Positions 1-22,406 of a DNA stretch of 64,000 bases are shown here, piece after piece. The notes beneath the pieces were generated by a model that was given only the letters and a program-made list of their open reading frames with translations, had not been told where the DNA came from and made no database searches. The DNA comes from Escherichia coli (GTDB taxonomy: Bacteria; Pseudomonadota; Gammaproteobacteria; Enterobacterales; Enterobacteriaceae). Position numbers and translations under genes: made by a program. The stretch lies in NCBI RefSeq assembly GCF_029227855.1, contig NZ_CP074356.1, one strand, 5' to 3'. How positions within the stretch are numbered: the first letter of the stretch is position 1; each line of letters starts with the position of its first letter.

Positions 1-18
1 TCACAGTACCGACCTGAT

Positions 19-672
19 ATGCCGTTTTGGCGATTACAAGGCGACGGATTCTGGCAATTACACAATGCCGAGCTTTGCTCAACAGCAGGGAGCAGCCGAC
101 AACCGCCAGTGAAGGAACTGAACGAATACCACGTTGCAGGCGGTTTCGATGAACAGCACTACGCCCTGGTAACCGGCAATAAAAAACTCATCAATACTCT
201 GGCGCAACAGATACTCGAAGCGCACTTCACCGAGAGTATTCAGGAAGAAATTGCTGACGAGCTGGGTTTTGATCTCCAGCAAATCCGTAAACAGCGCGAC
301 CCGTTATTTCGCAAAAATGTATTACGCGCTTATAACTACCAGTGCGCGATATGTGGCTTTAATATGCGCCACGACGACACCACCGTCGCGCTGGAAGCGG
401 CGCATATAAAATGGAAACAGCACGGCGGCCCTTGTGAAATCCCCAATGGTCTGGCGCTTTGCGCAATACACCATAAAGCCTTTGATAAAGGATCGATTGG
501 CCTGGATGAAAATATGCGGGTACTGGTCTCGGATGCGGTAAACGGCGGAGGGATCGTTGAGAGATTATTCTGGGATTTTGACGGGAAAACTATTGCGTTG
601 CCACAGGTGCGTAAAAATTACCCTTTTGAGGGGTTTGTGGAGTGGCATCGAAAAGAGGTTTTTAGGGGGTGA
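19..672 (+). CDS. HNH (His-Me finger) endonuclease-domain protein; possibly 5'-partial, since the frame is open from position 1
   Basis: Translation carries a CxxC...H...N...H pattern (YQCAICGF ... EAAHIKW ... NGLALCAIHHKAFDKG). No in-frame stop between position 1 and the ATG at 19, so the N-terminus may lie outside the window. Confidence 0.6.
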   Translation: MPFWRLQGDGFWQLHNAELCSTAGSSRQPPVKELNEYHVAGGFDEQHYALVTGNKKLINTLAQQILEAHFTESIQEEIADELGFDLQQIRKQRDPLFRKNVLRAYNYQCAICGFNMRHDDTTVALEAAHIKWKQHGGPCEIPNGLALCAIHHKAFDKGSIGLDENMRVLVSDAVNGGGIVERLFWDFDGKTIALPQVRKNYPFEGFVEWHRKEVFRG

Positions 673-984
673 GGTAGCCATTATATATCTTTCACCTAGG
701 ATTTTAAATGTAATAGATAAAGTATTTTCTGACACCGAAAGTAGTATTTATGAGTACATAGCCACAAATCAATTTTAAAATCTCAATATAAAATACGTTT
801 ACAAATATTCTAGTCAGAGTAAATATATATTCATTATAAGAGAATCCAATTATTAACCAATCGAAATTACAAATTAAAAAACAATTGGCATGTTGAATTG
901 TACACTAATTTATATACATAGTAAATTTACATCTATTCATGATATAATTATCGTGATATCAATTCATTAATCAGGAAAATCATA

Positions 985-1287
985 ATGGAATTGTTAAATA
1001 CTTATGATGATAAAGAAACAGCTGAAATATTTTTTGAAAAAATAGACGGAGAGAAAAGATTAGCAAGTGAGAGAGATGCTACAGAAACAGTCTATAACCT
1101 CTTCGGGCAACCAACATGGAAAAACTTTTATCTTCTTGATATGTTTAACCTAAAAGAGTTACAAGGGATTATAGAGTGTAGAAAAAATGGACAGCCGTTC
1201 GACCAGGAACGACACAGGGAAATAATAAAAATGCTTGAATATGCAGCAAAATCGTTTGACCTAATTATTCCTGCACATTGGCGATAA
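985..1287 (+). CDS. hypothetical small protein (100 aa), convergent with the Res-like gene
   Basis: ORF with ATG start preceded by a very AT-rich putative promoter region (672..984); no recognisable motifs. Confidence 0.4.
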   Translation: MELLNTYDDKETAEIFFEKIDGEKRLASERDATETVYNLFGQPTWKNFYLLDMFNLKELQGIIECRKNGQPFDQERHREIIKMLEYAAKSFDLIIPAHWR

Positions 1288-1290
1288 TAT

Positions 1291-1321
1291 CTGTTCCATA
1301 TCTCACAGAGATATGGAACAG
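1291..1321. terminator. perfect 14-bp inverted repeat between convergent genes; likely bidirectional intrinsic terminator
   Basis: ctgttccatatctc / aca loop / gagatatggaacag read directly; sits between the stop of the + strand ORF (1287) and the stop of the minus-strand Res-like gene (1334). Confidence 0.5.
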
Positions 1322-1333
1322 AATCATAATTAT

Positions 1334-4300
1334 TTACTCGCTAACCATCTTACTGAATAACTTCTCCAGATAAACGGGGCCTGTATCCTCAATAAAAAGC
1401 ACATTTCTGGCTTCCAGATTTTCTTTTGAGTCAGGTACGTTTACTAAGTCAACATAACAAGTTTCAGAAACAATAAATGCACTTAATGATAAGTTATCAT
1501 CCGATAATTTATGTTCAAGATTCTTAATTTCTTTATATAATCCGAACTTCGGATCATCAAGATTAAGATTGCGAATGCCTTTTGGATCAATAAGACTTAG
1601 CCATTGTTTACCACTTTTATCATCGACTAACCACAATAAGAAATCCGGATAAAAATTACCCGCAGTAGCAAAGCCCAGGCCTTTATTTTTAGAATCCGCA
1701 TTTCTTAGCAGATATAAACTTTTATCACCAATAATTTTCTGCCCTTTTGTCGAATCAACAAAAGACTGAAGATCCTGAACAAAAGTAATCTCGCTTGGCG
1801 CACCAAGTGCTGCCGGTCGCATTTTTAGCGGTATATTGGCATTTTTTTCAATCGAAAGAAGCGGGTAATAGAGATGTTTATCAAAGGTAATAGCAACCAT
1901 CCCGGATGCACTCCAGGATTTTGCTTTACCGATTTCGCCGTCGATGACCAATTGTTGTAATTGTTCCAGCCGACTGGCATAAGCCAACCCATCATCAGTT
2001 TCTTCGATCTCGAAATGGTACATTTTGATCATACCAGGATCATCTTCTTTCACCTGCGTGACTTCATAAAACTGACCTTCATAAGCATTTTTCAAGGTGT
2101 TGTAAAAGCGATCAGTATAATCAGTCAGCAGACGAAGCATAATATCTTCCTGCTTAGCAATATCTGCATATTGCTTAATCTCAAGCTCTGAAGCTGGAAT
2201 CAAAAGGGTATACCAACTATTTCCGATCTTTGTCTTACCGGTACAAAAGTCGATCAAACGTTGTTTATCCACACGTAAATTTGACCAGCCGCGTTGTAGT
2301 TTATAATTCTGAATGGCGAGATAAAGCCGATCAAAATCAAATGCACTAATGATTTTATAATCTAACTTCGCTTCATTGCGCACGTTAACCGGAGTATTGT
2401 CCCCTTTTCTGCTGGTATCAATCGACTCAAGTTTCGGGTATAAGTCCAGCTTAATATGCGGCTGCTTAATTTTCCCCTGAAAATCAGCAGGAACTTCATA
2501 CAATTCGGGAAAATAGACACGTTTAAAGCCGAGTCTTTGATTATCTTTATAACCATCTTTAAGCTTAAGTGTTTTAAGCCTGGTTGCTGGCATATTTGGC
2601 CGAGTTTCAAAATTCAGCTCAAGGATCTCGTCACTTGGCGTAATCCCTTCATCTTCCAGGTATTGTTTAAAGGTTGCCATGTAATCGGCACGTACACCGA
2701 ATACATTCAGTGTCTCTAATTTTTCCAGATGCAACCCTTTCGGACGCTCACCGGGTGTACTGCGTTTCAAAGAATAATTGCGACCTTTAAGGCGTACGCC
2801 ACGACCAAATAACTGAATGATCTGTGAACCTTCTCCACGGCCCATATTGAGCAATCCCATCGTTGAGACGCGCCAACTGCTCCAGCCTTCAGTAAATTTT
2901 CGCGAGCCGATCAAAATATGTAGTCGCGAGTCTTTGTCATTTAACGTATGAAAGAGTGACTTTGCAAAATCATCTCTCTGATAATCAAATGTCGTATCCT
3001 CTTCACACATTTTGTAAAGAGACGGTGCATCACCAATATTGATAAGGCCAAACGGTTCGGCCTCACCAACCTGTAATGCCAGTTCACCTTTACTGCCTAT
3101 TAAATTCAGAACTCGCAGTCGCTGACCAGAGTGAGTGGTGTTAAACAAGCGAGAAAGAATATCTGCGTAGATATCTTCCGGAGCGTTCATTAGTGCAGTA
3201 AAGCGATTTTCAAAAATGTTACGCTCTTTGGTATCGAGGATTCGCGCTTTATTTTTAATGAGATCGTTAATCCACGCTTTTGCCTGCGTTTCGTGGTTTA
3301 AAAACCATGCTAAAAAACGCAATACTGCGTGAATGTCTGAATCTTCACCACTTACCGTATTACCGACAAAAACCCACAGCGGTTTTTCGATATTAAATTC
3401 ACTTAATTTTTCTTTATTCTTATTGAATAAATATTGTTGCTGATAAAAGCTGAGCAAACACGCGGTAAAATACTCATACCGACGCTCATCTTTTTTATCC
3501 TCTTCAGGATTAAGGTTAAGAATCAGTGATTCTTTACCATAACCATCCTCATAGAAGAATTTATAGGAGTAATCGAACAGAATCGATTTTCCATAGACCT
3601 CTCGCGTCGCCTGAATACGCGCATCTCGTTTTTCTTCGCTGGTTAATGCTATTTGCGCTAACTCTTCTTCGTTCAGTTTACCTAAGGCCGTTGTTTCAAA
3701 AAGCAGCTTTGCTTTTTTCTTCTGAATTTCTGTTTCAACTGCCTCAACATTATTGCCACCGGCTACTGCCTGGCCAAAAGTTGCTGAATATTCAAACGCA
3801 AATCCGTCACGTGTTAATTTGTCACGACGGCGCATCCAGGCACCAGCAGCACTTCCGGTGCCTTTATGCCCTTCATCAATCAGAACCAGATTGTTGCCTT
3901 CAAATGCCTCAACGGCAACAGTTTTGTCACCCATTTCATCGGCAAGTTTATTGATATCAATAACTTCAATCGTGCCTTTGAAGGGCGCAGATTTACTCTT
4001 ATCGAATAACTGGTATTGGGTAAATCCTGAGTTTTCCAGCTCATCTAAATGTTGCTTCGACAGGCGTTCATCCGGCGTAAGCAGGATGATTTTATCCGGG
4101 TAATGGTGGGTATTACCGTTCTGGAAATAATGTAAATATTGCAAAATATTGACATGCAATAGCAGTGTTTTACCCGAACCGGTAGCGTTCCAGTATGCAA
4201 GTTTATTCAAGTCATCTAGAATGTATGATTTGAACTGATTAGCCCGGTCTTTTGCTGTTTTATCATTTTCAGCATTGTATGCTGCCAGCTCGTTATTTAG

Positions 4301-4714
4301 CCCATCGAGTAATTGCTGTTTACGATTGAAGTACCAGTCCAGGTAGATCTCGGTAAACAGAAGCGACAAGTACTGAAAATATTTCATATTCAGCACGGTG
4401 TCTTCTTTGCGATTACGGTGCTCAGTTATCTGCTGCCAGTGCTGTACGATATTGAGATCGTAACGACGCAGTTCATCGAGATCGATAAGATCGACCTCGA
4501 ATAAATAGTTACTCAGCTCATGGAAGAACAAGCTTTGGCCATCTTCATGGATGCCTTCAAAGCGATCTTCACCTAACCGATTTTTTAAACCTTGCAATGT
4601 GCCATCTTTAAAAAAATGGAACATAAAGCGGTTCAAAACCAGTTGCTTATGAAAGCTCAGTTTGCTGTTTGTCTCTTTTTTAACAGCTTTACCGGTGGTC
4701 GGTTTTTTAGCCAT
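1334..4714 (-). CDS. Type III restriction Res-like protein: superfamily-2 helicase with C-terminal PD-(D/E)xK nuclease motif (1126 aa)
   Basis: Walker A ATGSGKT, motif II LVLIDEGH, motif III SAT (EYSATFGQ), motif VI QLFGRGVRL; C-terminal NFYPDFLLWLV ... LSLIDPKG fits PD...DxK. ATG at 4714 lies 2 nt after the upstream gene's stop, with a GGAGGAGG Shine-Dalgarno inside that gene's 3' end. Confidence 0.8.
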   Translation of the reverse strand: MAKKPTTGKAVKKETNSKLSFHKQLVLNRFMFHFFKDGTLQGLKNRLGEDRFEGIHEDGQSLFFHELSNYLFEVDLIDLDELRRYDLNIVQHWQQITEHRNRKEDTVLNMKYFQYLSLLFTEIYLDWYFNRKQQLLDGLNNELAAYNAENDKTAKDRANQFKSYILDDLNKLAYWNATGSGKTLLLHVNILQYLHYFQNGNTHHYPDKIILLTPDERLSKQHLDELENSGFTQYQLFDKSKSAPFKGTIEVIDINKLADEMGDKTVAVEAFEGNNLVLIDEGHKGTGSAAGAWMRRRDKLTRDGFAFEYSATFGQAVAGGNNVEAVETEIQKKKAKLLFETTALGKLNEEELAQIALTSEEKRDARIQATREVYGKSILFDYSYKFFYEDGYGKESLILNLNPEEDKKDERRYEYFTACLLSFYQQQYLFNKNKEKLSEFNIEKPLWVFVGNTVSGEDSDIHAVLRFLAWFLNHETQAKAWINDLIKNKARILDTKERNIFENRFTALMNAPEDIYADILSRLFNTTHSGQRLRVLNLIGSKGELALQVGEAEPFGLINIGDAPSLYKMCEEDTTFDYQRDDFAKSLFHTLNDKDSRLHILIGSRKFTEGWSSWRVSTMGLLNMGRGEGSQIIQLFGRGVRLKGRNYSLKRSTPGERPKGLHLEKLETLNVFGVRADYMATFKQYLEDEGITPSDEILELNFETRPNMPATRLKTLKLKDGYKDNQRLGFKRVYFPELYEVPADFQGKIKQPHIKLDLYPKLESIDTSRKGDNTPVNVRNEAKLDYKIISAFDFDRLYLAIQNYKLQRGWSNLRVDKQRLIDFCTGKTKIGNSWYTLLIPASELEIKQYADIAKQEDIMLRLLTDYTDRFYNTLKNAYEGQFYEVTQVKEDDPGMIKMYHFEIEETDDGLAYASRLEQLQQLVIDGEIGKAKSWSASGMVAITFDKHLYYPLLSIEKNANIPLKMRPAALGAPSEITFVQDLQSFVDSTKGQKIIGDKSLYLLRNADSKNKGLGFATAGNFYPDFLLWLVDDKSGKQWLSLIDPKGIRNLNLDDPKFGLYKEIKNLEHKLSDDNLSLSAFIVSETCYVDLVNVPDSKENLEARNVLFIEDTGPVYLEKLFSKMVSE

Positions 4715-4716
4715 TC

Positions 4717-6513
4717 TTAAACCTCCTCCGCAAACATCAGGTTCAAGAATTCAGGTTCGATCTGGCGGATTTTCAGGCTACGAACAATCTCGCCGTCTTC
4801 TTCATCAACAGTAAAGGCGGTAGGTAAGTTATGATCGCCATTGATATAGATAACGTCGAACGTGTTTTCTTTTGCATATAAATCGAATCGGTTGGCATAT
4901 TTATTCAATTCTTCATAACCGATCTTGTCGCAATCGCGCCACAGAATAAGGGTACGCTCGCCTGTTGGTAGCATTCCTTCAACACGCACATAGCCACGTT
5001 CGATATTGGATTCGATGGATTTCACATGTAAACCAATGAGATAGTTGAAAGTTTCAACTAAATCGATGTTTTTACGCTCAGTGGCACCGGCGGAATCCGT
5101 CGCAATATCCATTTCGTAGTTAAATGGTTTTTTGAAATTATCAGTACTGAGTAGTGAACCTTTGCTTTCTGTTTCAAGCATATATTTTATTAAATACTCA
5201 TTTGCTACTGATTCATTCACTGTATCAAAAAGATCTTTTATTTCTTTTTGTTGTTCAAATCGAAGGCTATTTAATACATCTTCGTAACTTTCTATTTTCA
5301 TAACTTTAAGTATATGAGATGAGCCTGTCGTTGAATCCATAGCTTTACCATCTTTCCAATTGCTACTGAATATAACTTTTCTCAACCTGCTTAAAGTTAC
5401 ATTTTGTGCATACTCCCCCTGTTCAACAAGTATATATTTCCTTGAACCCGCATCCTTACGATTCAACTCTATGACTGAGTGGCCACTTGTTCCTGAACCA
5501 GCAAAAAAATCTAATATTATCTCATTTTTATTATGAGATGCACTCCCAATTAAATAATTATATAAAGAAGTTGAGTGACAATAAGGAAAATCAATTCCAA
5601 GATGAGTTGTTTGAGTTTTTCCTTTTTTAGCATCCTGAATTATTGATGTTATTTGCTTTTTAGCGTCAGCATATAAATATGCTTTCTGTCTAGGTTGCGT
5701 TGTTTCATCAACACCAAATAGTATATCCCCCTTATCCATCATATCTTTTAATGTTTCTGGGGTACGAGAAAAACCATTTGGTGGCATAGCGCATGGTTTC
5801 CCGGTAACTGGATGAATTAATGGTATATAGAATTTCTTGTCAGTCCTTGGCTCTGGGGCACGGAGGCTGACACTCTGGTACACTCGACCTTTCTCATCGA
5901 TATATTTGTAAGCTTGTTCACCTCCAGTAAGTTTTTTATTCTTTGTTACCCAATCATAAAATTTTTTCTTTGCTTCACTGTTAATTACAGGATATTTATT
6001 CTTAATTAATTTTGCATATTCGAGTATTTCTAATACATTCTCATTTTTCTTATTAATAGAAATCATGTTCTTTGTAAAACAAGTAGTATATTCATGTTGA
6101 ATCGCAATGCCACTACCACCATTCATGGGATTGCGTTTATCCCAAATAATTGTCCCTGCATCGATAAGACCTAACTGTTTATTAATTAAATAAAGTCGCT
6201 CATATTCATTTTCATCAATATGACAAAAAAATACACCATTTTCACTGAGTAAATTTTTAACAAAAAGCAAACGGCTATCCATCATACTCAGCCAACTTGA
6301 ATGCTTAAAGCTATTTTTATATAAAAAACCACTAGTATCTGTGTTATATGGTGGATCTATATGGACACAATCAATTACGGAATTATATTTTTTCTTCAAA
6401 AGATTTAACGCTTGATAATTATCACCATTAATAAAAACGCCATCAACATTATCGTCAATATCATTGATACTATTTAATATTTTTTCCTTAGATCTCCGTT
6501 TAAATGAGATAAA
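4717..6513 (-). CDS. beta-class N6-adenine/N4-cytosine DNA methyltransferase (Mod-like); no canonical start, probably joined to the upstream ORF by a -1 frameshift
   Basis: Motif IV IDPPYN followed later by motif I LDFFAGSGTSG (order IV then I is beta class). The ORF track starts at a TTG (6399), but the frame is open upstream to 6513 and encodes a conserved-looking pre-motif segment (DGVFINGDNYQALNLL). No ATG/GTG between the stop at 6514..6516 and 6399. Confidence 0.75.
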   Translation of the reverse strand, partial: FISFKRRSKEKILNSINDIDDNVDGVFINGDNYQALNLLKKKYNSVIDCVHIDPPYNTDTSGFLYKNSFKHSSWLSMMDSRLLFVKNLLSENGVFFCHIDENEYERLYLINKQLGLIDAGTIIWDKRNPMNGGSGIAIQHEYTTCFTKNMISINKKNENVLEILEYAKLIKNKYPVINSEAKKKFYDWVTKNKKLTGGEQAYKYIDEKGRVYQSVSLRAPEPRTDKKFYIPLIHPVTGKPCAMPPNGFSRTPETLKDMMDKGDILFGVDETTQPRQKAYLYADAKKQITSIIQDAKKGKTQTTHLGIDFPYCHSTSLYNYLIGSASHNKNEIILDFFAGSGTSGHSVIELNRKDAGSRKYILVEQGEYAQNVTLSRLRKVIFSSNWKDGKAMDSTTGSSHILKVMKIESYEDVLNSLRFEQQKEIKDLFDTVNESVANEYLIKYMLETESKGSLLSTDNFKKPFNYEMDIATDSAGATERKNIDLVETFNYLIGLHVKSIESNIERGYVRVEGMLPTGERTLILWRDCDKIGYEELNKYANRFDLYAKENTFDVIYINGDHNLPTAFTVDEEDGEIVRSLKIRQIEPEFLNLMFAEEV

Positions 6514-7838
6514 TTAACTGTTGCAAACTTGAGCAACTCCACATCAGAGGTAGATGGCTTCTCATCTAAGATGCCTAATTCAATCCATTCTTGGACTATT
6601 TTTTCATTATTAATTATTTCACTGTAAAACTCTGAACTTATTTTGTCCATAGTAATATAGTAATTACTTGAAACAACAAACTTCTTCTTAGTCCAAAGTT
6701 TCTTCTGGAAATTCTCAATTTGTGCCAAAAATGCAATGAGTTCCAGCGCAACAGTACGCAAACATTGAATCATGCGCAATTGTTTCTCAATATTGGCAAA
6801 CACTTCTGCATTTTGCACATTATCGAGATTCATTACTTCATTTTTAATATAAAAATCCAGTTCGTTAGTTAAAAAACCACCGAGATCTTTATGAATAAAG
6901 TAGTCTGCTGTATTACGCTGGGTATAAGTTGTAAGATGACGCTCCAACTCTGTACGTGACGGATTTTTTTCTGTTGGCGCACGTTTAGCAAGATCAACCC
7001 AATGCTGTTGAACTGTTTTATCAGCCAGAATTGTTGAAATAGCGGACTGCACTAAAGCATCCTGCTTAGTGCCCTTTTTCATGGCCTTATATTCGAAGTG
7101 AATAACTAACTCTTCTGTTTCAACGAGTTTACCGTCAACCACAGATGAAGTTTTCACCACTTCTACTGGCTTATATTCTTGTTCGTACTCATCGCCTTCT
7201 TCATCAATTTTGGTACGAACATGCGGCTCAATAAGTACAAAGCAGCGATCTAATTCATTATCTTTACGGTTATCTTTTGCTGTGTCCGCTGCGAGCAATT
7301 TAAAGCTAACTTTACGACCCTCATCTAATTTAAATGAATAATTAGCAAAGTTTTCACCGCTTTTAATGTAGTACTGGTCCTTATTTGCCCAGTGCAACAT
7401 CACTTCTTCGCCAGAATAAGGGATGGCGTAGGTATTACCTTTATAACGGCGTTTGCTGATAAAATCGCCGTTGTCATAATAACGCGAAAAGAAAGTCAGC
7501 AGATGGGAAAATACTGCATTTTCATGCTCATTTGCTCCGGATGCCATAGCCGCCAGTTGCTTTTTAAGCTCCTGTACTTTCGGGCTATCAGCAGGGTCCA
7601 CACCCGCATCAGTTGCCGCTTTTATTGTCAGTTGCAACTGATGTTCTAATTCTGATTTATTGGCATTTCCTGCATCCGCCAGCGCAGACTGGATTTTGGC
7701 CTTCAGCTTATTATCCAGATAGTCGTTAATTTCATCAGCACGTGCATTTAAAATACGATAAATACCGAAATCCAGTTCTGGTCGATCAATCTGAAAAATT
7801 TCTTTTAGCTTCTTAACTAATTCGTTGTACTTACTCAT
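6474..7838 (-). CDS. uncharacterised protein (454 aa from ATG at 7838); possible N-terminal part of a fused methyltransferase
   Basis: Long ORF with no motifs I recognise. Lies 20 bp downstream of the SNF2 gene stop; its 3' end overlaps the open methyltransferase frame (6474..6513). Confidence 0.7.
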   Translation of the reverse strand: MSKYNELVKKLKEIFQIDRPELDFGIYRILNARADEINDYLDNKLKAKIQSALADAGNANKSELEHQLQLTIKAATDAGVDPADSPKVQELKKQLAAMASGANEHENAVFSHLLTFFSRYYDNGDFISKRRYKGNTYAIPYSGEEVMLHWANKDQYYIKSGENFANYSFKLDEGRKVSFKLLAADTAKDNRKDNELDRCFVLIEPHVRTKIDEEGDEYEQEYKPVEVVKTSSVVDGKLVETEELVIHFEYKAMKKGTKQDALVQSAISTILADKTVQQHWVDLAKRAPTEKNPSRTELERHLTTYTQRNTADYFIHKDLGGFLTNELDFYIKNEVMNLDNVQNAEVFANIEKQLRMIQCLRTVALELIAFLAQIENFQKKLWTKKKFVVSSNYYITMDKISSEFYSEIINNEKIVQEWIELGILDEKPSTSDVELLKFATVNLSHLNGDLRKKY

Positions 7839-7858
7839 TATTTTCTCTTTCAAATCAA

Positions 7859-20304: not shown

Positions 20305-21018
20305 TTATCTGGAATGTCGGTACCTTTTATACTCTTCAACAATCAGGTCATGCAGCATTTCGCCGGTACTGAGTCTTCTGACCCTCGATAATTCTTTGAG
20401 CTGCGCCCTGGTTTCTGCGTCAAGAAAAAACTGTACATTGACTTTATCTTCCTGCATTTTTTTGTACTTGCGCTGCGCCTTGGCCTTATTGAAACTGTTT
20501 CTGAAATTTTTTATATCGTCAGGTGAGGTGAGTGGACAGGTAACCCATATGTCAAATGAAAGGTGAATTGCGTGGTAAATATCAGCAGAACCAGGAAAAC
20601 TGGCCAGTTTTTCCAGTGCAATATTTTTTCCCTTCAAATAATTCCATGTCCATATGCATTCATGTTCGTTCTCCGGGAGGAGGTAACTGAAAGGACTCTT
20701 TGATTTAAATGCCCGCATCCATCTGTCTTTGGTCTGGATTATCCACTCATCCCGCAAATTCTTATCAGAAAGAATATCGAGAACTCTGAGTATTTGTCTG
20801 AACTGTGTCGATGAGTCCGACGGGAAGGCATTCCCTTCTAAATACTCTTCTTTAAGATACAGTTTATTCTTTTGAAGCAAGTCTGCGCTTATTTTTGTCC
20901 TGTTATTCTGGATAAACTGCATCAACAGATACCAGGAAAATAAGCATGCACGTTCACTGCCCGCGATCCAGGATATTTTTTCCAGGGGCACCAGGGAGGC
21001 CAGTGCCTTCAGACGCAT
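20305..21018 (-). CDS. hypothetical protein (237 aa)
   Basis: ORF only. Confidence 0.5.
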   Translation of the reverse strand: MRLKALASLVPLEKISWIAGSERACLFSWYLLMQFIQNNRTKISADLLQKNKLYLKEEYLEGNAFPSDSSTQFRQILRVLDILSDKNLRDEWIIQTKDRWMRAFKSKSPFSYLLPENEHECIWTWNYLKGKNIALEKLASFPGSADIYHAIHLSFDIWVTCPLTSPDDIKNFRNSFNKAKAQRKYKKMQEDKVNVQFFLDAETRAQLKELSRVRRLSTGEMLHDLIVEEYKRYRHSR

Positions 21019-22406
21019 ACCAGAAATGATTTGTTCAAGTTCAAAATCTGAAAGTGTGATGTTCAGATTTTCTCTGTTTTTTTTATGTAAGCGATAAAAC
21101 GTTCCGGGGGATCATAAACATTAAGGGGCAGTACGGAGATATTACGCTCTCCAAGATAATAAGAGTAATACGCATTTGTTCTTTCATTCATAACCTTATC
21201 CGACAAAATTTTCTGAACCATCCTCTTTCTCCGGTTGCTTAAAAATTAAACATAATAAGGTGATAATAACATGATAAAAAGAAGTTTATAATGGTATATT
21301 AAGGTGGTCAATAAAAAGGCAATCTGCGCGCTGTACAGTCATTCTGACAGGAAATGCAGGAGGAAGGGAAGGTAACCGGCTTCGTTATGCTGACAGGAAT
21401 ACCTGTTATCATGGAAGTGCACTCATGTGGCCGACGTAGCTTAAGAGGATGGAAGAGTGGAGACTGCAGACAGGGGGTATTGAAAGGTAAACATGTTTCG
21501 CCCGCCAGCTGCACCGGGGGCCAGCATCACTTTTTTTACGTTGTAACCCGGTATGCATTCCGGCTTTGATGATTACAGTCAGAGGGCAGCAGACTGACGT
21601 TATTTAACCGGACAGAAAAATTATGGACACTGAAATATCGTCTGTTAATACCTCGTTTGTCGGTGTGGTATTCCCTGTATTACCGGCGTCACCGATAAAG
21701 AGAGTTATAAACGCCAGAAAGGTACCTCCTTTATGCCGGGGAACACTTACGGAAAATGAAGTCTGAAAAGGAGCACAATGAAAAGAGGCGTGTCCCGTAA
21801 ATATAGGGGCAAATCCAAGGTGATACCAGAGGGCATTAAACTGTCGCCACGGATAAGAATATACAACATTTCTGATAACAAAACATCATAACGTGTTTCA
21901 GATATGTTCCGGCATCAGTCTGACGGATATTATTTCCCGGTAAAACAAACCGGCTACTGTAACGGTTAACTGTATCTGCATAAATTATTTATGATGAAAG
22001 AACAGTATTACGGATTCAAATATCATCCTGTTTGCATTCAGGCGGACATTCCCGGATGCCGGAAAGAATATCCTGCAGGCTGAGTGAGTCTCTTCCACAG
22101 TGCCGGGATCGCTGTCGCCACGTACATATTGTCACCAGGATGGGTATGTACCGCAGCATGCCATTTCTGGTGAATAACCGCACCTGCACATTCAGTCTGC
22201 TGAGAACCTGGCGTGTATCGGGCTGTAAAGAACATCCCTGTCCGTGGCTCCTCTGGTGGTGTTGCCTGCTCAGCAATGACAGGATGCCCTTAAGACGCCC
22301 GTCATGGCTCAGTATGATGACGACGAACACGCTCTGCAGGTGAGCATGCGGGGCCGGGAGCATCATCATTTCCGTATTTTGTCACACCTTCCGGAAGCAA
22401 CCGGCA

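What the first reader, a model, noticed from the sequence alone, without database searches (positions are those of the whole stretch)
6390..6520. Methyltransferase lacks its own start; conserved coding sequence continues upstream and overlaps the preceding ORF at an A6 tract (probable -1 frameshift fusion)
On the minus strand the methyltransferase frame is open from 6513 down to the TTG at 6399 with no ATG or GTG, yet this stretch encodes FISFKRRSKEKILNSINDIDDNVDGVFINGDNYQALNLL, whose hhxGDxxxxL pattern directly precedes IDPPYN and resembles the conserved region preceding motif IV in N6-adenine methyltransferases. The upstream 454-aa ORF ends (…GDLRKKY, stop at 6474..6476) inside this open frame, and the mRNA at the overlap reads AGGAAAAAAUAUUAA. 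A -1 shift here would yield one ~1030-aa protein (unknown N-terminal domain plus methyltransferase). Possibilities: a genuinely fused gene broken by a 1-bp indel (assembly error or inactivating mutation), a slippage-prone tract giving phase-variable expression as seen in many Type III mod genes, or programmed frameshifting.
Basis: seen in the sequence. Interest (0 to 1): 0.75.

Follow-up and report, generated by a model that had tools for sequence, protein, structure and literature searches.

The report
Methylase gene broken by one-base slip
A single 1040-residue DNA methyltransferase gene of an E. coli restriction-type defence cassette is split in two here because a run of seven A's has shrunk to six, an ordinary slippage frameshift that recurs in other strains, not a programmed one.

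Summary
On the minus strand, the 454-aa ORF (6474..7838) and the start-less methyltransferase frame (open from 6513, ending at 4717) overlap at an A6 run (6480..6485). They are two halves of one gene. A 1057-position Type III methyltransferase profile covers both, and distant homologs run straight through the junction.

Thirty of 33 complete E. coli genomes carrying this allele have A7 and one 1040-aa ORF. The window differs from the intact allele at this site only by the missing A, and a -1 shift would restore exactly the intact protein.

Programmed frameshifting is not supported:
- About 97% of sampled contigs carrying these exact protein variants are in frame.
- The slippery site is not canonical.
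- No downstream RNA structure is predicted.

The run is a recurrent slippage site. A5, A6 and A8 alleles occur on at least four haplotype backgrounds. A6, A7 and A8 all occur on one 9.4-kb operon haplotype with zero SNPs. No other indel was seen in the operon apart from two in one short, low-quality contig.

Best reading: a spontaneous A7→A6 null mutation of a Type III-like mod gene in a SNF2–Mod–Res cassette on the leuX-anchored island. It probably silences the whole system. A read-level error in this particular assembly cannot be excluded. True phase variation remains a minority possibility. Interest is low.

The parts
7859..10750 (-). SNF2-family helicase gene (963 aa), first gene of the cassette. 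It is intact here.
   Evidence: PADLOC DrmD PDLC02619, 663 bits. NCBIfam DISARM_DrmD_b scores 667 bits, below the cut-off of 950. The gene is 2892 nt in 59 of 60 listed complete genomes.
6474..7838 (-). 5' part of the mod gene: the conserved N-terminal domain, now a 454-aa ORF ending ...GDLRKKY* (an alternative TTG start lies at 7853).
   Evidence: Matches PADLOC MTase_III PDLC03646 at profile positions 1-458. It is identical in sequence to WP_275877442.1. No Pfam domain. About 60% identical across distant taxa.
6480..6485 (-). A6 run (T6 on the + strand). It is the site of the 1-nt contraction relative to the A7 of the intact allele.
   Evidence: Alignments to L001, L003 and L017. Alleles A5, A6, A7 and A8 are found in other E. 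coli.
4717..6513 (-). 3' part of the mod gene in the -1 frame. The frame is open from 6513, genuine coding runs from the A run (about 6483) to the stop at 4717, and the first canonical start is the TTG at 6399.
   Evidence: Matches PDLC03646 at profile positions 454-1057. Pfam N6_N4_Mtase covers residues 489-812 of the intact protein. EcoP15I Mod 4zcf_A matches at E = 1.7e-39. DPPY and FAGSGT motifs are visible in the translation.
1334..4714 (-). Res-like helicase gene (1126 aa), starting 2 nt after the mod stop. It is intact here.
   Evidence: PADLOC REase_III PDLC03654, 2326 bits. Pfam ResIII covers residues 167-293. The gene is 3381 nt in 60 of 60 listed complete genomes. A PD...DxK-like motif (YPDF...LIDPKG) near the C-terminus was noted by eye only.
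985..1287 (+). Convergent 100-aa ORF that travels with the cassette. Function unknown.
   Evidence: A 100-aa ORF sits in the same position in every E. coli locus where that flank was held and in Thalassolituus L018.

Best explanation
The window carries a loss-of-function allele of a single 1040-aa Type III-like DNA adenine methyltransferase (mod) gene. The gene is the middle one of a three-gene SNF2-helicase / Mod / Res-like-helicase cassette on the leuX-anchored island.

Replication slippage shortened an A7 run to A6. The run encodes Lys-Lys-Ile at the junction between the conserved N-terminal domain and the methyltransferase core. Translation now stops five nucleotides after the run, leaving a 454-aa N-terminal fragment.

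The methyltransferase core has no usable start of its own. The first canonical start is the TTG at 6399. It lies after the conserved GDNYQALNLL segment, and I saw no obvious Shine-Dalgarno sequence upstream of it.

Shown: one gene, the position and nature of the lesion, and its recurrence in other lineages.

Inferred: the allele is null for methylation. By analogy with Type III enzymes, where Res needs Mod for DNA recognition, restriction is also off, which would explain why the mutation is tolerated. At most a trace of full-length protein could arise from non-programmed slippage on the A6 run.
For: One gene:
- The PADLOC profile is split across the two ORFs.
- Alignment with a homolog at 51% identity is collinear across the junction.
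- The consensus of 50 homologs is continuous through the junction.
- RefSeq annotates a single 1040-aa CDS in E24377A, WP8-S18-ESBL-07, F6326-C1 and NCTC86.

Nature of the lesion:
- The only indel between the window and these operons is A7 versus A6.
- RefSeq flags the A6 gene of MS 21-1 and H22, and the A8 gene of MB06101, as 'frameshifted'.

A6 alleles are real elsewhere:
- The same ORF1 protein occurs on at least 24 contigs from NCBI, Logan and ENA samples.
- The H22-type A6 protein occurs on 6 contigs under 4 accessions.

The window is not error-ridden:
- Over 64 kb it has only two private indels against its closest relatives.
- The second of these (A9→A8) is itself an established polymorphism, present in 80 of 1370 genomes.

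In frame is the norm:
- Thirty of 33 complete genomes are in frame.
- Exact intact proteins are found on 566 + 482 + 85 + 13 contigs.

Other points:
- Indel rates in E. coli rise exponentially with homopolymer length (PMC8510543).
- The mod gene of this family is also broken in other ways elsewhere: IS1 insertion, core deletion, and a different frameshift.
Against: - Without reads I cannot show that the A6 in this particular assembly is a real mutation rather than a homopolymer under-call. Its exact ORF1 sequence is known only from one RefSeq protein.
- All indels in good-quality sequences fall on this one of seven 7-nt runs in the operon. This hints at something beyond neutral decay, either a context-specific hot spot or selection.
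- The dependence of Res on Mod is an analogy only. The Res-like protein has no detectable sequence match to EcoP15I Res in the PDB, and the role of the SNF2 gene is unknown.
Confidence: 0.68

Rival explanations
1. Contingency locus (phase variation). The A7 run is a selected, reversible ON/OFF switch for the Mod-dependent defence system. A6 and A8 are OFF phases that can revert, as with homopolymer-driven Type III mod genes in Helicobacter and other genera.
For: - Run-length alleles A5, A6, A7 and A8 exist.
- A6 (L007, L008), A7 (F6326-C1) and A8 (MB06101) sit on operon haplotypes with zero SNPs over 9.4 kb.
- NCTC86 (A7) differs by 1-3 SNPs from the A5 and A6 members of the MS 21-1 group.
- At least 5-6 independent events hit this run. 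None hit the six other A7/T7 runs in good-quality sequences.
- Three of 33 mod genes carry an indel, against 1 of 120 copies of the flanking genes (Fisher p = 0.03).
- SNF2 and res stay intact in all the OFF alleles except the low-quality contig L013, whose res has a 1-nt deletion.
- Tracts of 7-8 nt can phase-vary in some species (PMC5909438).
Against: - Seven nucleotides is below the 9-nt criterion for mononucleotide tracts.
- E. coli is mismatch-repair proficient, unlike the cited C. jejuni case (this is my own knowledge).
- About 97% of sampled contigs are ON. A freely switching locus would give a mixture.
- The run is specific to this allele and is not conserved in the other mod alleles or in distant homologs.
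- A9→A8 in an unrelated neighbouring gene is polymorphic at a similar frequency of 6%, so this level of variation is background for long A runs in this island.
- The sample is partly biased, because L005-L013 were retrieved through frameshift-specific proteins.
Confidence: 0.13
2. Sequencing or assembly artefact. The strain really has A7 and an intact mod gene, and the assembly under-called the homopolymer by one base.
For: - Both private indels of the window are 1-nt contractions of long A/T runs, A7→A6 and A9→A8. This is the typical signature of homopolymer under-calling.
- The window's exact ORF1 is not seen on any independent contig.
- MB06101 (A8) and F9792 (SNF2 gene 1 nt short) may be similar one-off cases.
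Against: - Only 2 of about 24 A/T runs of 7 nt or more in the window differ from close relatives, and there are no indels at all in 31 kb of core sequence.
- The same A6 state is reproducibly sequenced in other strains and projects.
- The A8 state of the second run is common in high-quality genomes, 80 of 1370.
Confidence: 0.15
3. Programmed recoding. A -1 ribosomal frameshift or transcriptional slippage on the A run is the normal way this strain makes full-length Mod, with the 454-aa product as a second functional protein.
For: - A -1 slip on the run would give exactly the wild-type sequence ...DLRKKILNS....
- A GGAG lies 8 nt upstream of the run, and the 0-frame stop follows 3 nt after it.
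Against: - The out-of-frame arrangement is not conserved. Thirty of 33 genomes and all distant homologs examined across this junction are in frame here.
- The heptamer G-AAA-AAA is not X-XXY-YYZ.
- There is no stable downstream structure. The 141-nt fold is -14.2 kcal/mol against a shuffle mean of -18.7 (z = +1.5).
- Six A's are short for RNA-polymerase slippage (my own knowledge).
Confidence: 0.02
4. Functional split. The N-terminal domain and the methyltransferase core work as two separate polypeptides, with the core started at TTG 6399 or at a non-canonical codon.
For: - RefSeq carries both halves as separate proteins, WP_275877442.1 and WP_275877441.1.
- The break sits precisely at a domain boundary.
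Against: - No homolog shows a natural two-gene arrangement at this junction.
- The TTG start would remove the conserved hhxGDNxQxLxLL segment that precedes DPPY.
- I saw no obvious Shine-Dalgarno sequence upstream of the TTG.
- The split alleles are rare and recent, differing from intact alleles by 0-3 SNPs.
Confidence: 0.02

Closest known systems
Frameshifted pseudogenes at homopolymer runs (replication-slippage indels), as flagged 'frameshifted' by NCBI PGAP
   Same: A single-base length change in an A/T run breaks an otherwise intact, recently functional ORF. RefSeq already annotates the A6 lesion this way in E. coli MS 21-1 and H22, and the A8 lesion in MB06101.
   Different: The same run has been hit repeatedly on different haplotypes, which is more than expected if all seven 7-nt runs of the operon were equally mutable.
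[quoted passage not shown] Helicobacter pylori modH with a G[n] tract; survey in PMC5909438
   Same: A Type III-like beta-class mod gene carries an intragenic mononucleotide run whose length differs between isolates and switches the reading frame. Loss of Mod would also disable restriction.
   Different: - The run is A7, not 9 nt or longer.
- ON alleles make up about 97% of the sample.
- Switching has not been demonstrated.
- The run sits at residue ~452 of a 1040-aa protein carrying a 450-aa extra N-terminal domain.
- The host is mismatch-repair-proficient E. coli.
- The one phase-variable E. coli mod reported in that survey uses a CAGCGAC[n] repeat.
EcoP15I-type Type III restriction-modification (Mod + Res)
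   Same: - The Mod core is homologous to EcoP15I Mod (4zcf_A, E = 1.7e-39), with DPPY before FxGxG.
- mod lies immediately upstream of a large ResIII-domain helicase gene.
- PADLOC calls the pair MTase_III and REase_III.
   Different: - Mod has an extra, highly conserved N-terminal domain of about 450 aa with no Pfam or PDB match.
- The Res-like protein has no detectable sequence match to solved Res structures.
- A DrmD-like SNF2 helicase gene is a conserved third component.
dnaX-type programmed -1 frameshifting (A AAA AAG with upstream SD-like element and downstream hairpin)
   Same: A lysine-codon A run with a GGAG a few nucleotides upstream. A -1 slip would give a meaningful product.
   Different: The heptamer is not in the right register or sequence, there is no downstream hairpin, and the frameshifted arrangement is not conserved.

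Membership tests
Type III R-M Mod subunit (beta-class N6-adenine methyltransferase) | N6_N4_Mtase domain with motif IV (DPPY) N-terminal to motif I (FxGxG), and homology to EcoP15I Mod | tested here: met
   Pfam PF01555 covers residues 489-812, E = 6e-29. 4zcf_A matches at E = 1.7e-39. IDPPYN precedes DFFAGSGTSGH in the translation. PADLOC MTase_III PDLC03646 matches at E = 0.
Type III R-M (whole system) | A Res subunit with an SF2 helicase plus a C-terminal PD-(D/E)xK nuclease, encoded just downstream of mod and dependent on Mod for DNA recognition | tested here: inconclusive
   Gene order and tight spacing are met. There is a Pfam ResIII hit and a PADLOC REase_III hit. There is no sequence match to solved Res proteins. 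The nuclease motif was seen by eye only. Dependence on Mod cannot be tested here. The extra SNF2 gene and the extra Mod N-domain are not part of the canonical type.
Phase-variable mod gene (phasevarion) | An intragenic simple-sequence repeat long enough for high-frequency slippage (mononucleotide 9 nt or more in the survey's criteria) | tested here: not met
   The run is A7 in the intact allele and A6 here. The criterion comes from PMC5909438.
Phase-variable mod gene (phasevarion) | Repeat-length polymorphism between closely related isolates that toggles the reading frame | tested here: met
   A5, A6, A7 and A8 alleles exist. A6, A7 and A8 occur on haplotypes identical over 9.4 kb.
Phase-variable mod gene (phasevarion) | Reversible, high-frequency ON/OFF switching within a clonal population | not testable with these tools
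   This needs fragment-length analysis or deep sequencing of cultures. Indirectly, about 97% of sampled contigs are ON, which argues against free switching.
Programmed -1 ribosomal frameshift | The two-frame arrangement is conserved among homologs | tested here: not met
   Thirty of 33 complete genomes are in frame. Distant homologs are in one frame across this junction.
Programmed -1 ribosomal frameshift | An X-XXY-YYZ slippery heptamer in the 0 frame plus a downstream stimulatory structure | tested here: not met
   The 0 frame reads AGG-AAA-AAA-UAU, so the heptamer is G-AAA-AAA. The downstream fold is no better than shuffles, z = +1.5.
DISARM class 1 | DrmD together with DrmMI, DrmA, DrmB (DUF1998) and DrmC | tested here: not met
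   The SNF2 protein scores 667 bits on NF038318, below the cut-off of 950. The 1126-aa protein hits only REase_III and no DrmA, DrmB or DrmC model.

The most novel reading that the evidence does not exclude
The A7 run at the domain junction is a genuine low-rate contingency switch. Selection repeatedly toggles it (A6/A8 OFF, A7 ON), and it controls an uncharacterised three-gene SNF2–Mod–Res defence cassette on the E. coli leuX-anchored island. That would be a homopolymer-driven, phase-variable Type III-like methyltransferase in a mismatch-repair-proficient enterobacterium, with possible epigenetic (phasevarion-like) side effects.
Probability: 0.12. Interest if true: 0.5.

Novelty: already known. 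Interest (0 to 1): 0.22.

Why it matters
Mostly for annotation. The two ORFs, which RefSeq carries as separate proteins WP_275877442.1 and WP_275877441.1, should be treated as one frameshifted mod pseudogene. The strain should be predicted to lack this methylation and, probably, this restriction activity.

There is a modest biological point. A short A7 run at a domain boundary is the preferred breaking point of this defence gene across several E. coli lineages. This illustrates how defence cassettes in the leuX region are switched off without being deleted.

If the switch proved reversible and selected, it would extend phase-variable Type III-like systems to E. coli homopolymers. The present evidence does not favour that.

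Tried and rejected
- Programmed frameshifting: rejected on lack of conservation, the heptamer and RNA folding.
- Plasmid origin: no match in PLSDB.
- DISARM class 1, and BREX-related 'BR' systems (DUF499 ATPase + DUF1156 methyltransferase + SNF2; PMC12839542): components do not match.
- Identity of the N-terminal domain:
  - No Pfam or NCBIfam hit.
  - AlphaFold2 on a 50-sequence alignment gave pLDDT 72.
  - Foldseek against the PDB gave nothing (best E = 0.09, TM ~0.1).
  - The domain stays unassigned.
- Res-like protein against PDB sequences, at E up to 10: only chance hits.
- Literature searches for a described SNF2 + Type III Mod/Res system or for this E. coli cassette found nothing specific.
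- Representative proteins from the large protein search were mostly contig-end fragments, so they were uninformative about run length.
- The source genome of the window is not among the 5426 complete RefSeq E. coli genomes, so its own reads and platform could not be assessed.
Full report
**1. What is in the sequence**

Four co-oriented genes on the minus strand form a tight cluster:
- a 963-aa SNF2-family helicase (7859..10750);
- a 454/459-aa ORF (6474..7838, or ..7853 from a TTG start);
- a methyltransferase ORF (4717..6399 from a TTG start, frame open back to 6513);
- a 1126-aa helicase (1334..4714) that starts 2 nt after the methyltransferase stop.

At the overlap the mRNA reads CUA AGG AAA AAA UAU UAA. 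The stop is at 6476..6474 and the A6 run at 6480..6485. The methyltransferase frame lies at -1 relative to the upstream ORF. It has no ATG or GTG between 6513 and the TTG at 6399.

Thirty-eight stop-free codons would occur by chance about 5% of the time at this composition. The open frame alone is therefore weak evidence, and the case rests on homology.

**2. The two ORFs are one gene**

- A single PADLOC profile, MTase_III PDLC03646 with 1057 positions, matches the upstream ORF over profile positions 1-458 and the extended downstream frame over 454-1057.
- Pfam finds N6_N4_Mtase at residues 489-812 of the reconstructed protein and nothing in the first 450 residues.
- The core is homologous to EcoP15I Mod (4zcf_A, E = 1.7e-39).
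- A metagenomic homolog at 51% identity aligns collinearly through the junction...NGDLRKKILNSINDIDDNVDGVFINGDNYQAL against ...DGEFKRILLSGIEDLDAQLNGLLVHGDNFQGL.
- The consensus of 50 homologs is likewise continuous.

The stretch FISFKRRSKE in the methyltransferase frame upstream of the run is out-of-frame noise. The true protein there is ...LSHLNGDLRKK.

**3. The lesion**

The window is E. coli. Its closest complete genomes are E24377A and O169:H41 F6326-C1. In these, and in WP8-S18-ESBL-07 and NCTC86, RefSeq annotates one 1040-aa 'site-specific DNA-methyltransferase'.

Across the 3.1-kb gene the window differs from these alleles by one or two SNPs and a single missing A. The intact allele reads AGG AAA AAA ATA TTA (A7) and the window has A6. 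Adding one A, or a -1 ribosomal slip on the run, regenerates exactly the intact sequence.

**4. How common it is, and whether it is real**

An 81-nt probe across the run finds 33 complete E. coli genomes:
- 30 with A7;
- 2 with A6 (MS 21-1 and H22);
- 1 with A8 (MB06101).

RefSeq annotates all three out-of-frame genes as 'frameshifted'.

Exact-sequence look-ups in the large protein collection give these contig counts:
- intact 1040-aa variants: 566, 482, 85 and 13 contigs;
- MS 21-1-type A6 fragment: 14 or more contigs by the cluster look-up (at least 24 contigs were read, in 31 index blocks);
- H22-type A6 fragment: 6 contigs, under four accessions;
- A8 fragment: 2 contigs;
- A5 fragment: 1 contig.

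That is roughly 2-3% out of frame.

A6 alleles are therefore real in nature.

For the window itself I cannot see reads. The sequence is not generally error-prone, however. Over 64 kb it has only two private indels relative to its nearest relatives, and none in 31 kb of core sequence. The second private indel is A9→A8, and it splits a 305-aa hypothetical gene at 21077..21084. It is itself a common polymorphism, with an exact match in 80 of 1370 complete genomes.

**5. Recurrence**

I aligned the 9.4-kb operon from 16 sources. Non-A7 alleles lie on at least four backgrounds:
- the window (A6; 2 SNPs from E24377A);
- a haplotype on which L007 and L008 (A6), F6326-C1 (A7) and MB06101 (A8) have zero SNPs between them;
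- the MS 21-1 group (A6, with one A5 derivative, L012), which is 1-3 SNPs from NCTC86 (A7);
- H22 (A6; 162 SNPs away from the rest).

That makes at least five or six independent events.

The operon has six other A7/T7 runs, and none varies in the good-quality sequences. The short, low-quality contig L013 is the exception: it also carries a 1-nt contraction of the T7 run in res and a single-T deletion in ORF1. The res gene is 3381 nt in 60 of 60 listed genomes, and SNF2 is 2892 nt in 59 of 60. Three of 33 against 1 of 120 gives Fisher p = 0.03.

This enrichment is real but modest, and partly biased. L005-L013 were found through frameshift-specific proteins: L005-L011 through the A6 ORF1 fragment, L012-L013 through the window's TTG-start downstream half. 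Slippage rates are also strongly context-dependent (PMC8510543).

**6. Mechanism**

The best-supported reading is a spontaneous replication-slippage contraction that inactivates mod. The 454-aa N-terminal fragment is probably still made. The methyltransferase core lacks a usable start, because the TTG at 6399 falls after the conserved GDNYQALNLL segment that precedes DPPY.

In Type III enzymes, Res depends on Mod for site recognition (established knowledge of EcoP15I-type enzymes; an analogy here). A mod null should therefore also switch off restriction. That would explain why the lesion is tolerated while SNF2 and res remain intact.

Programmed frameshifting is rejected for three reasons:
- The frameshifted state is the rare one.
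- The 0-frame heptamer is G-AAA-AAA.
- The 141-nt region folds less stably than the mean of its shuffles (z = +1.5).

Phase variation stays possible but unproven. The run is shorter than the 9-nt criterion of the mod survey, although that paper notes that 7-8-nt tracts vary in some species (PMC5909438). About 97% of alleles are ON. A neighbouring unrelated A9 run shows a similar 6% polymorphism.

**7. What the system is**

PADLOC names the pair MTase_III and REase_III. The SNF2 protein is DrmD-like but falls below NCBIfam's DISARM cut-offs, and no DrmA, DrmB or DrmC is present.

The same arrangement occurs in Thalassolituus: HTH gene, SNF2, mod, res, and a convergent 100-aa ORF. A truncated version occurs in Castellaniella. 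So this is a conserved three-gene module, Type III-like but with two non-canonical features:
- the SNF2 gene;
- a 450-aa Mod N-terminal domain. It is about 60% identical across distant taxa, has no Pfam match, and shows no PDB fold match for a model at pLDDT 72.

I found no paper describing this module. The cassette lies on an island anchored at tRNA-Leu (leuX). In H22 and 806883-11-2019 it sits directly beside the tRNA gene. A review names leuX as the anchor of the most occupied E. coli defence hotspot (PMC12707154).

The mod gene of this family is also found broken in other ways:
- by IS1;
- by deletion of the core in a Salmonella protein;
- by a different frameshift in Thalassolituus.

This fits frequent loss of function.

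**8. Verdict**

The favoured 'frameshift fusion' is right as gene structure. As a mechanism it is an ordinary 1-nt homopolymer indel, already flagged as 'frameshifted' in other strains by RefSeq.

Interest is low. The only unusual aspect is the repeated use of this one A7 run, which leaves a roughly 12% chance of a genuine contingency switch.

Noticed in passing
window 20305..21221 (-), A8 run at 21077..21084: A second gene is split by a homopolymer contraction. The 305-aa hypothetical protein WP_000250236.1 of E24377A and F6326-C1 is broken here into 52-aa and 237-aa ORFs by A9→A8. The exact A8 context occurs in 80 of 1370 complete E. coli genomes, so this run is polymorphic too.
   Followed up: partly
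window ~31826..31834 (+): An intergenic T9 run. E24377A has T10 here, while F6326-C1 matches the window. This is another length-variable homopolymer in the island.
   Followed up: partly
window 6474..7838 and homologs P0014, P0016, P0020, P0025: E. coli mod alleles of this cassette share a nearly identical N-terminal ~390 aa, and the Salmonella deletion variant P0025 shows the C-terminal ~150 aa is shared too. After ...KKLWTKKKFVV they carry unrelated central sequences. This looks like cassette-style allele shuffling, as in Type III mod genes. In complete genomes, 166 match part of the gene but only 33 carry this allele.
   Followed up: partly
L020 6534..7231; L018 10230..10330; L019 6353..7563; P0025: The mod gene of this family is inactivated in other ways elsewhere. 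IS1 is inserted just before DPPY in E. coli LR890606.1. A different frameshift lies just before the FxGSG motif in Thalassolituus. An IS interrupts the gene in Castellaniella. A Salmonella protein lacks the whole methyltransferase core.
   Followed up: partly
window 6474..7838 (Mod residues 1-450): The N-terminal domain is more conserved than the methyltransferase core, at about 60% identity across distant taxa with many invariant residues. It has no Pfam or NCBIfam hit and no PDB fold match (AF2 pLDDT 72). Its function is unknown.
   Followed up: partly
L018 (Thalassolituus) 4843..15877; L019 (Castellaniella) 888..6387: The cassette is conserved outside E. coli. Thalassolituus has an HTH_17 gene, SNF2, mod, res and a convergent 100-aa ORF, with a RhuM-family gene inserted between mod and res. 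Castellaniella holds a truncated copy (HTH_17, SNF2 and an IS-interrupted mod).
   Followed up: no
NZ_CP024273.1 (F9792) 4671512..4674402: The SNF2 gene of strain F9792 is 2891 nt instead of 2892 nt, a 1-nt deletion. It is the only length deviation among 60 listed SNF2 copies. I did not check whether it falls in a homopolymer.
   Followed up: no
L014 (H22) and L016 (806883-11-2019), locus positions 2297..12190: In these strains the SNF2–mod–res cassette and the neighbouring phosphorothioate-DNA-binding HNH endonuclease gene lie directly next to tRNA-Leu (leuX). The window's CP4-like island (yeeS/yeeT/cbtA/Ag43) is absent, so the cassette and the island are separable modules.
   Followed up: no
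window 1..672 (+): The 3' part of a gene for a 'phosphorothioated DNA-binding restriction endonuclease' (SBD-HNH, ScoMcrA-like) is cut by the window start. It is a second, independent defence gene next to the cassette.
   Followed up: no
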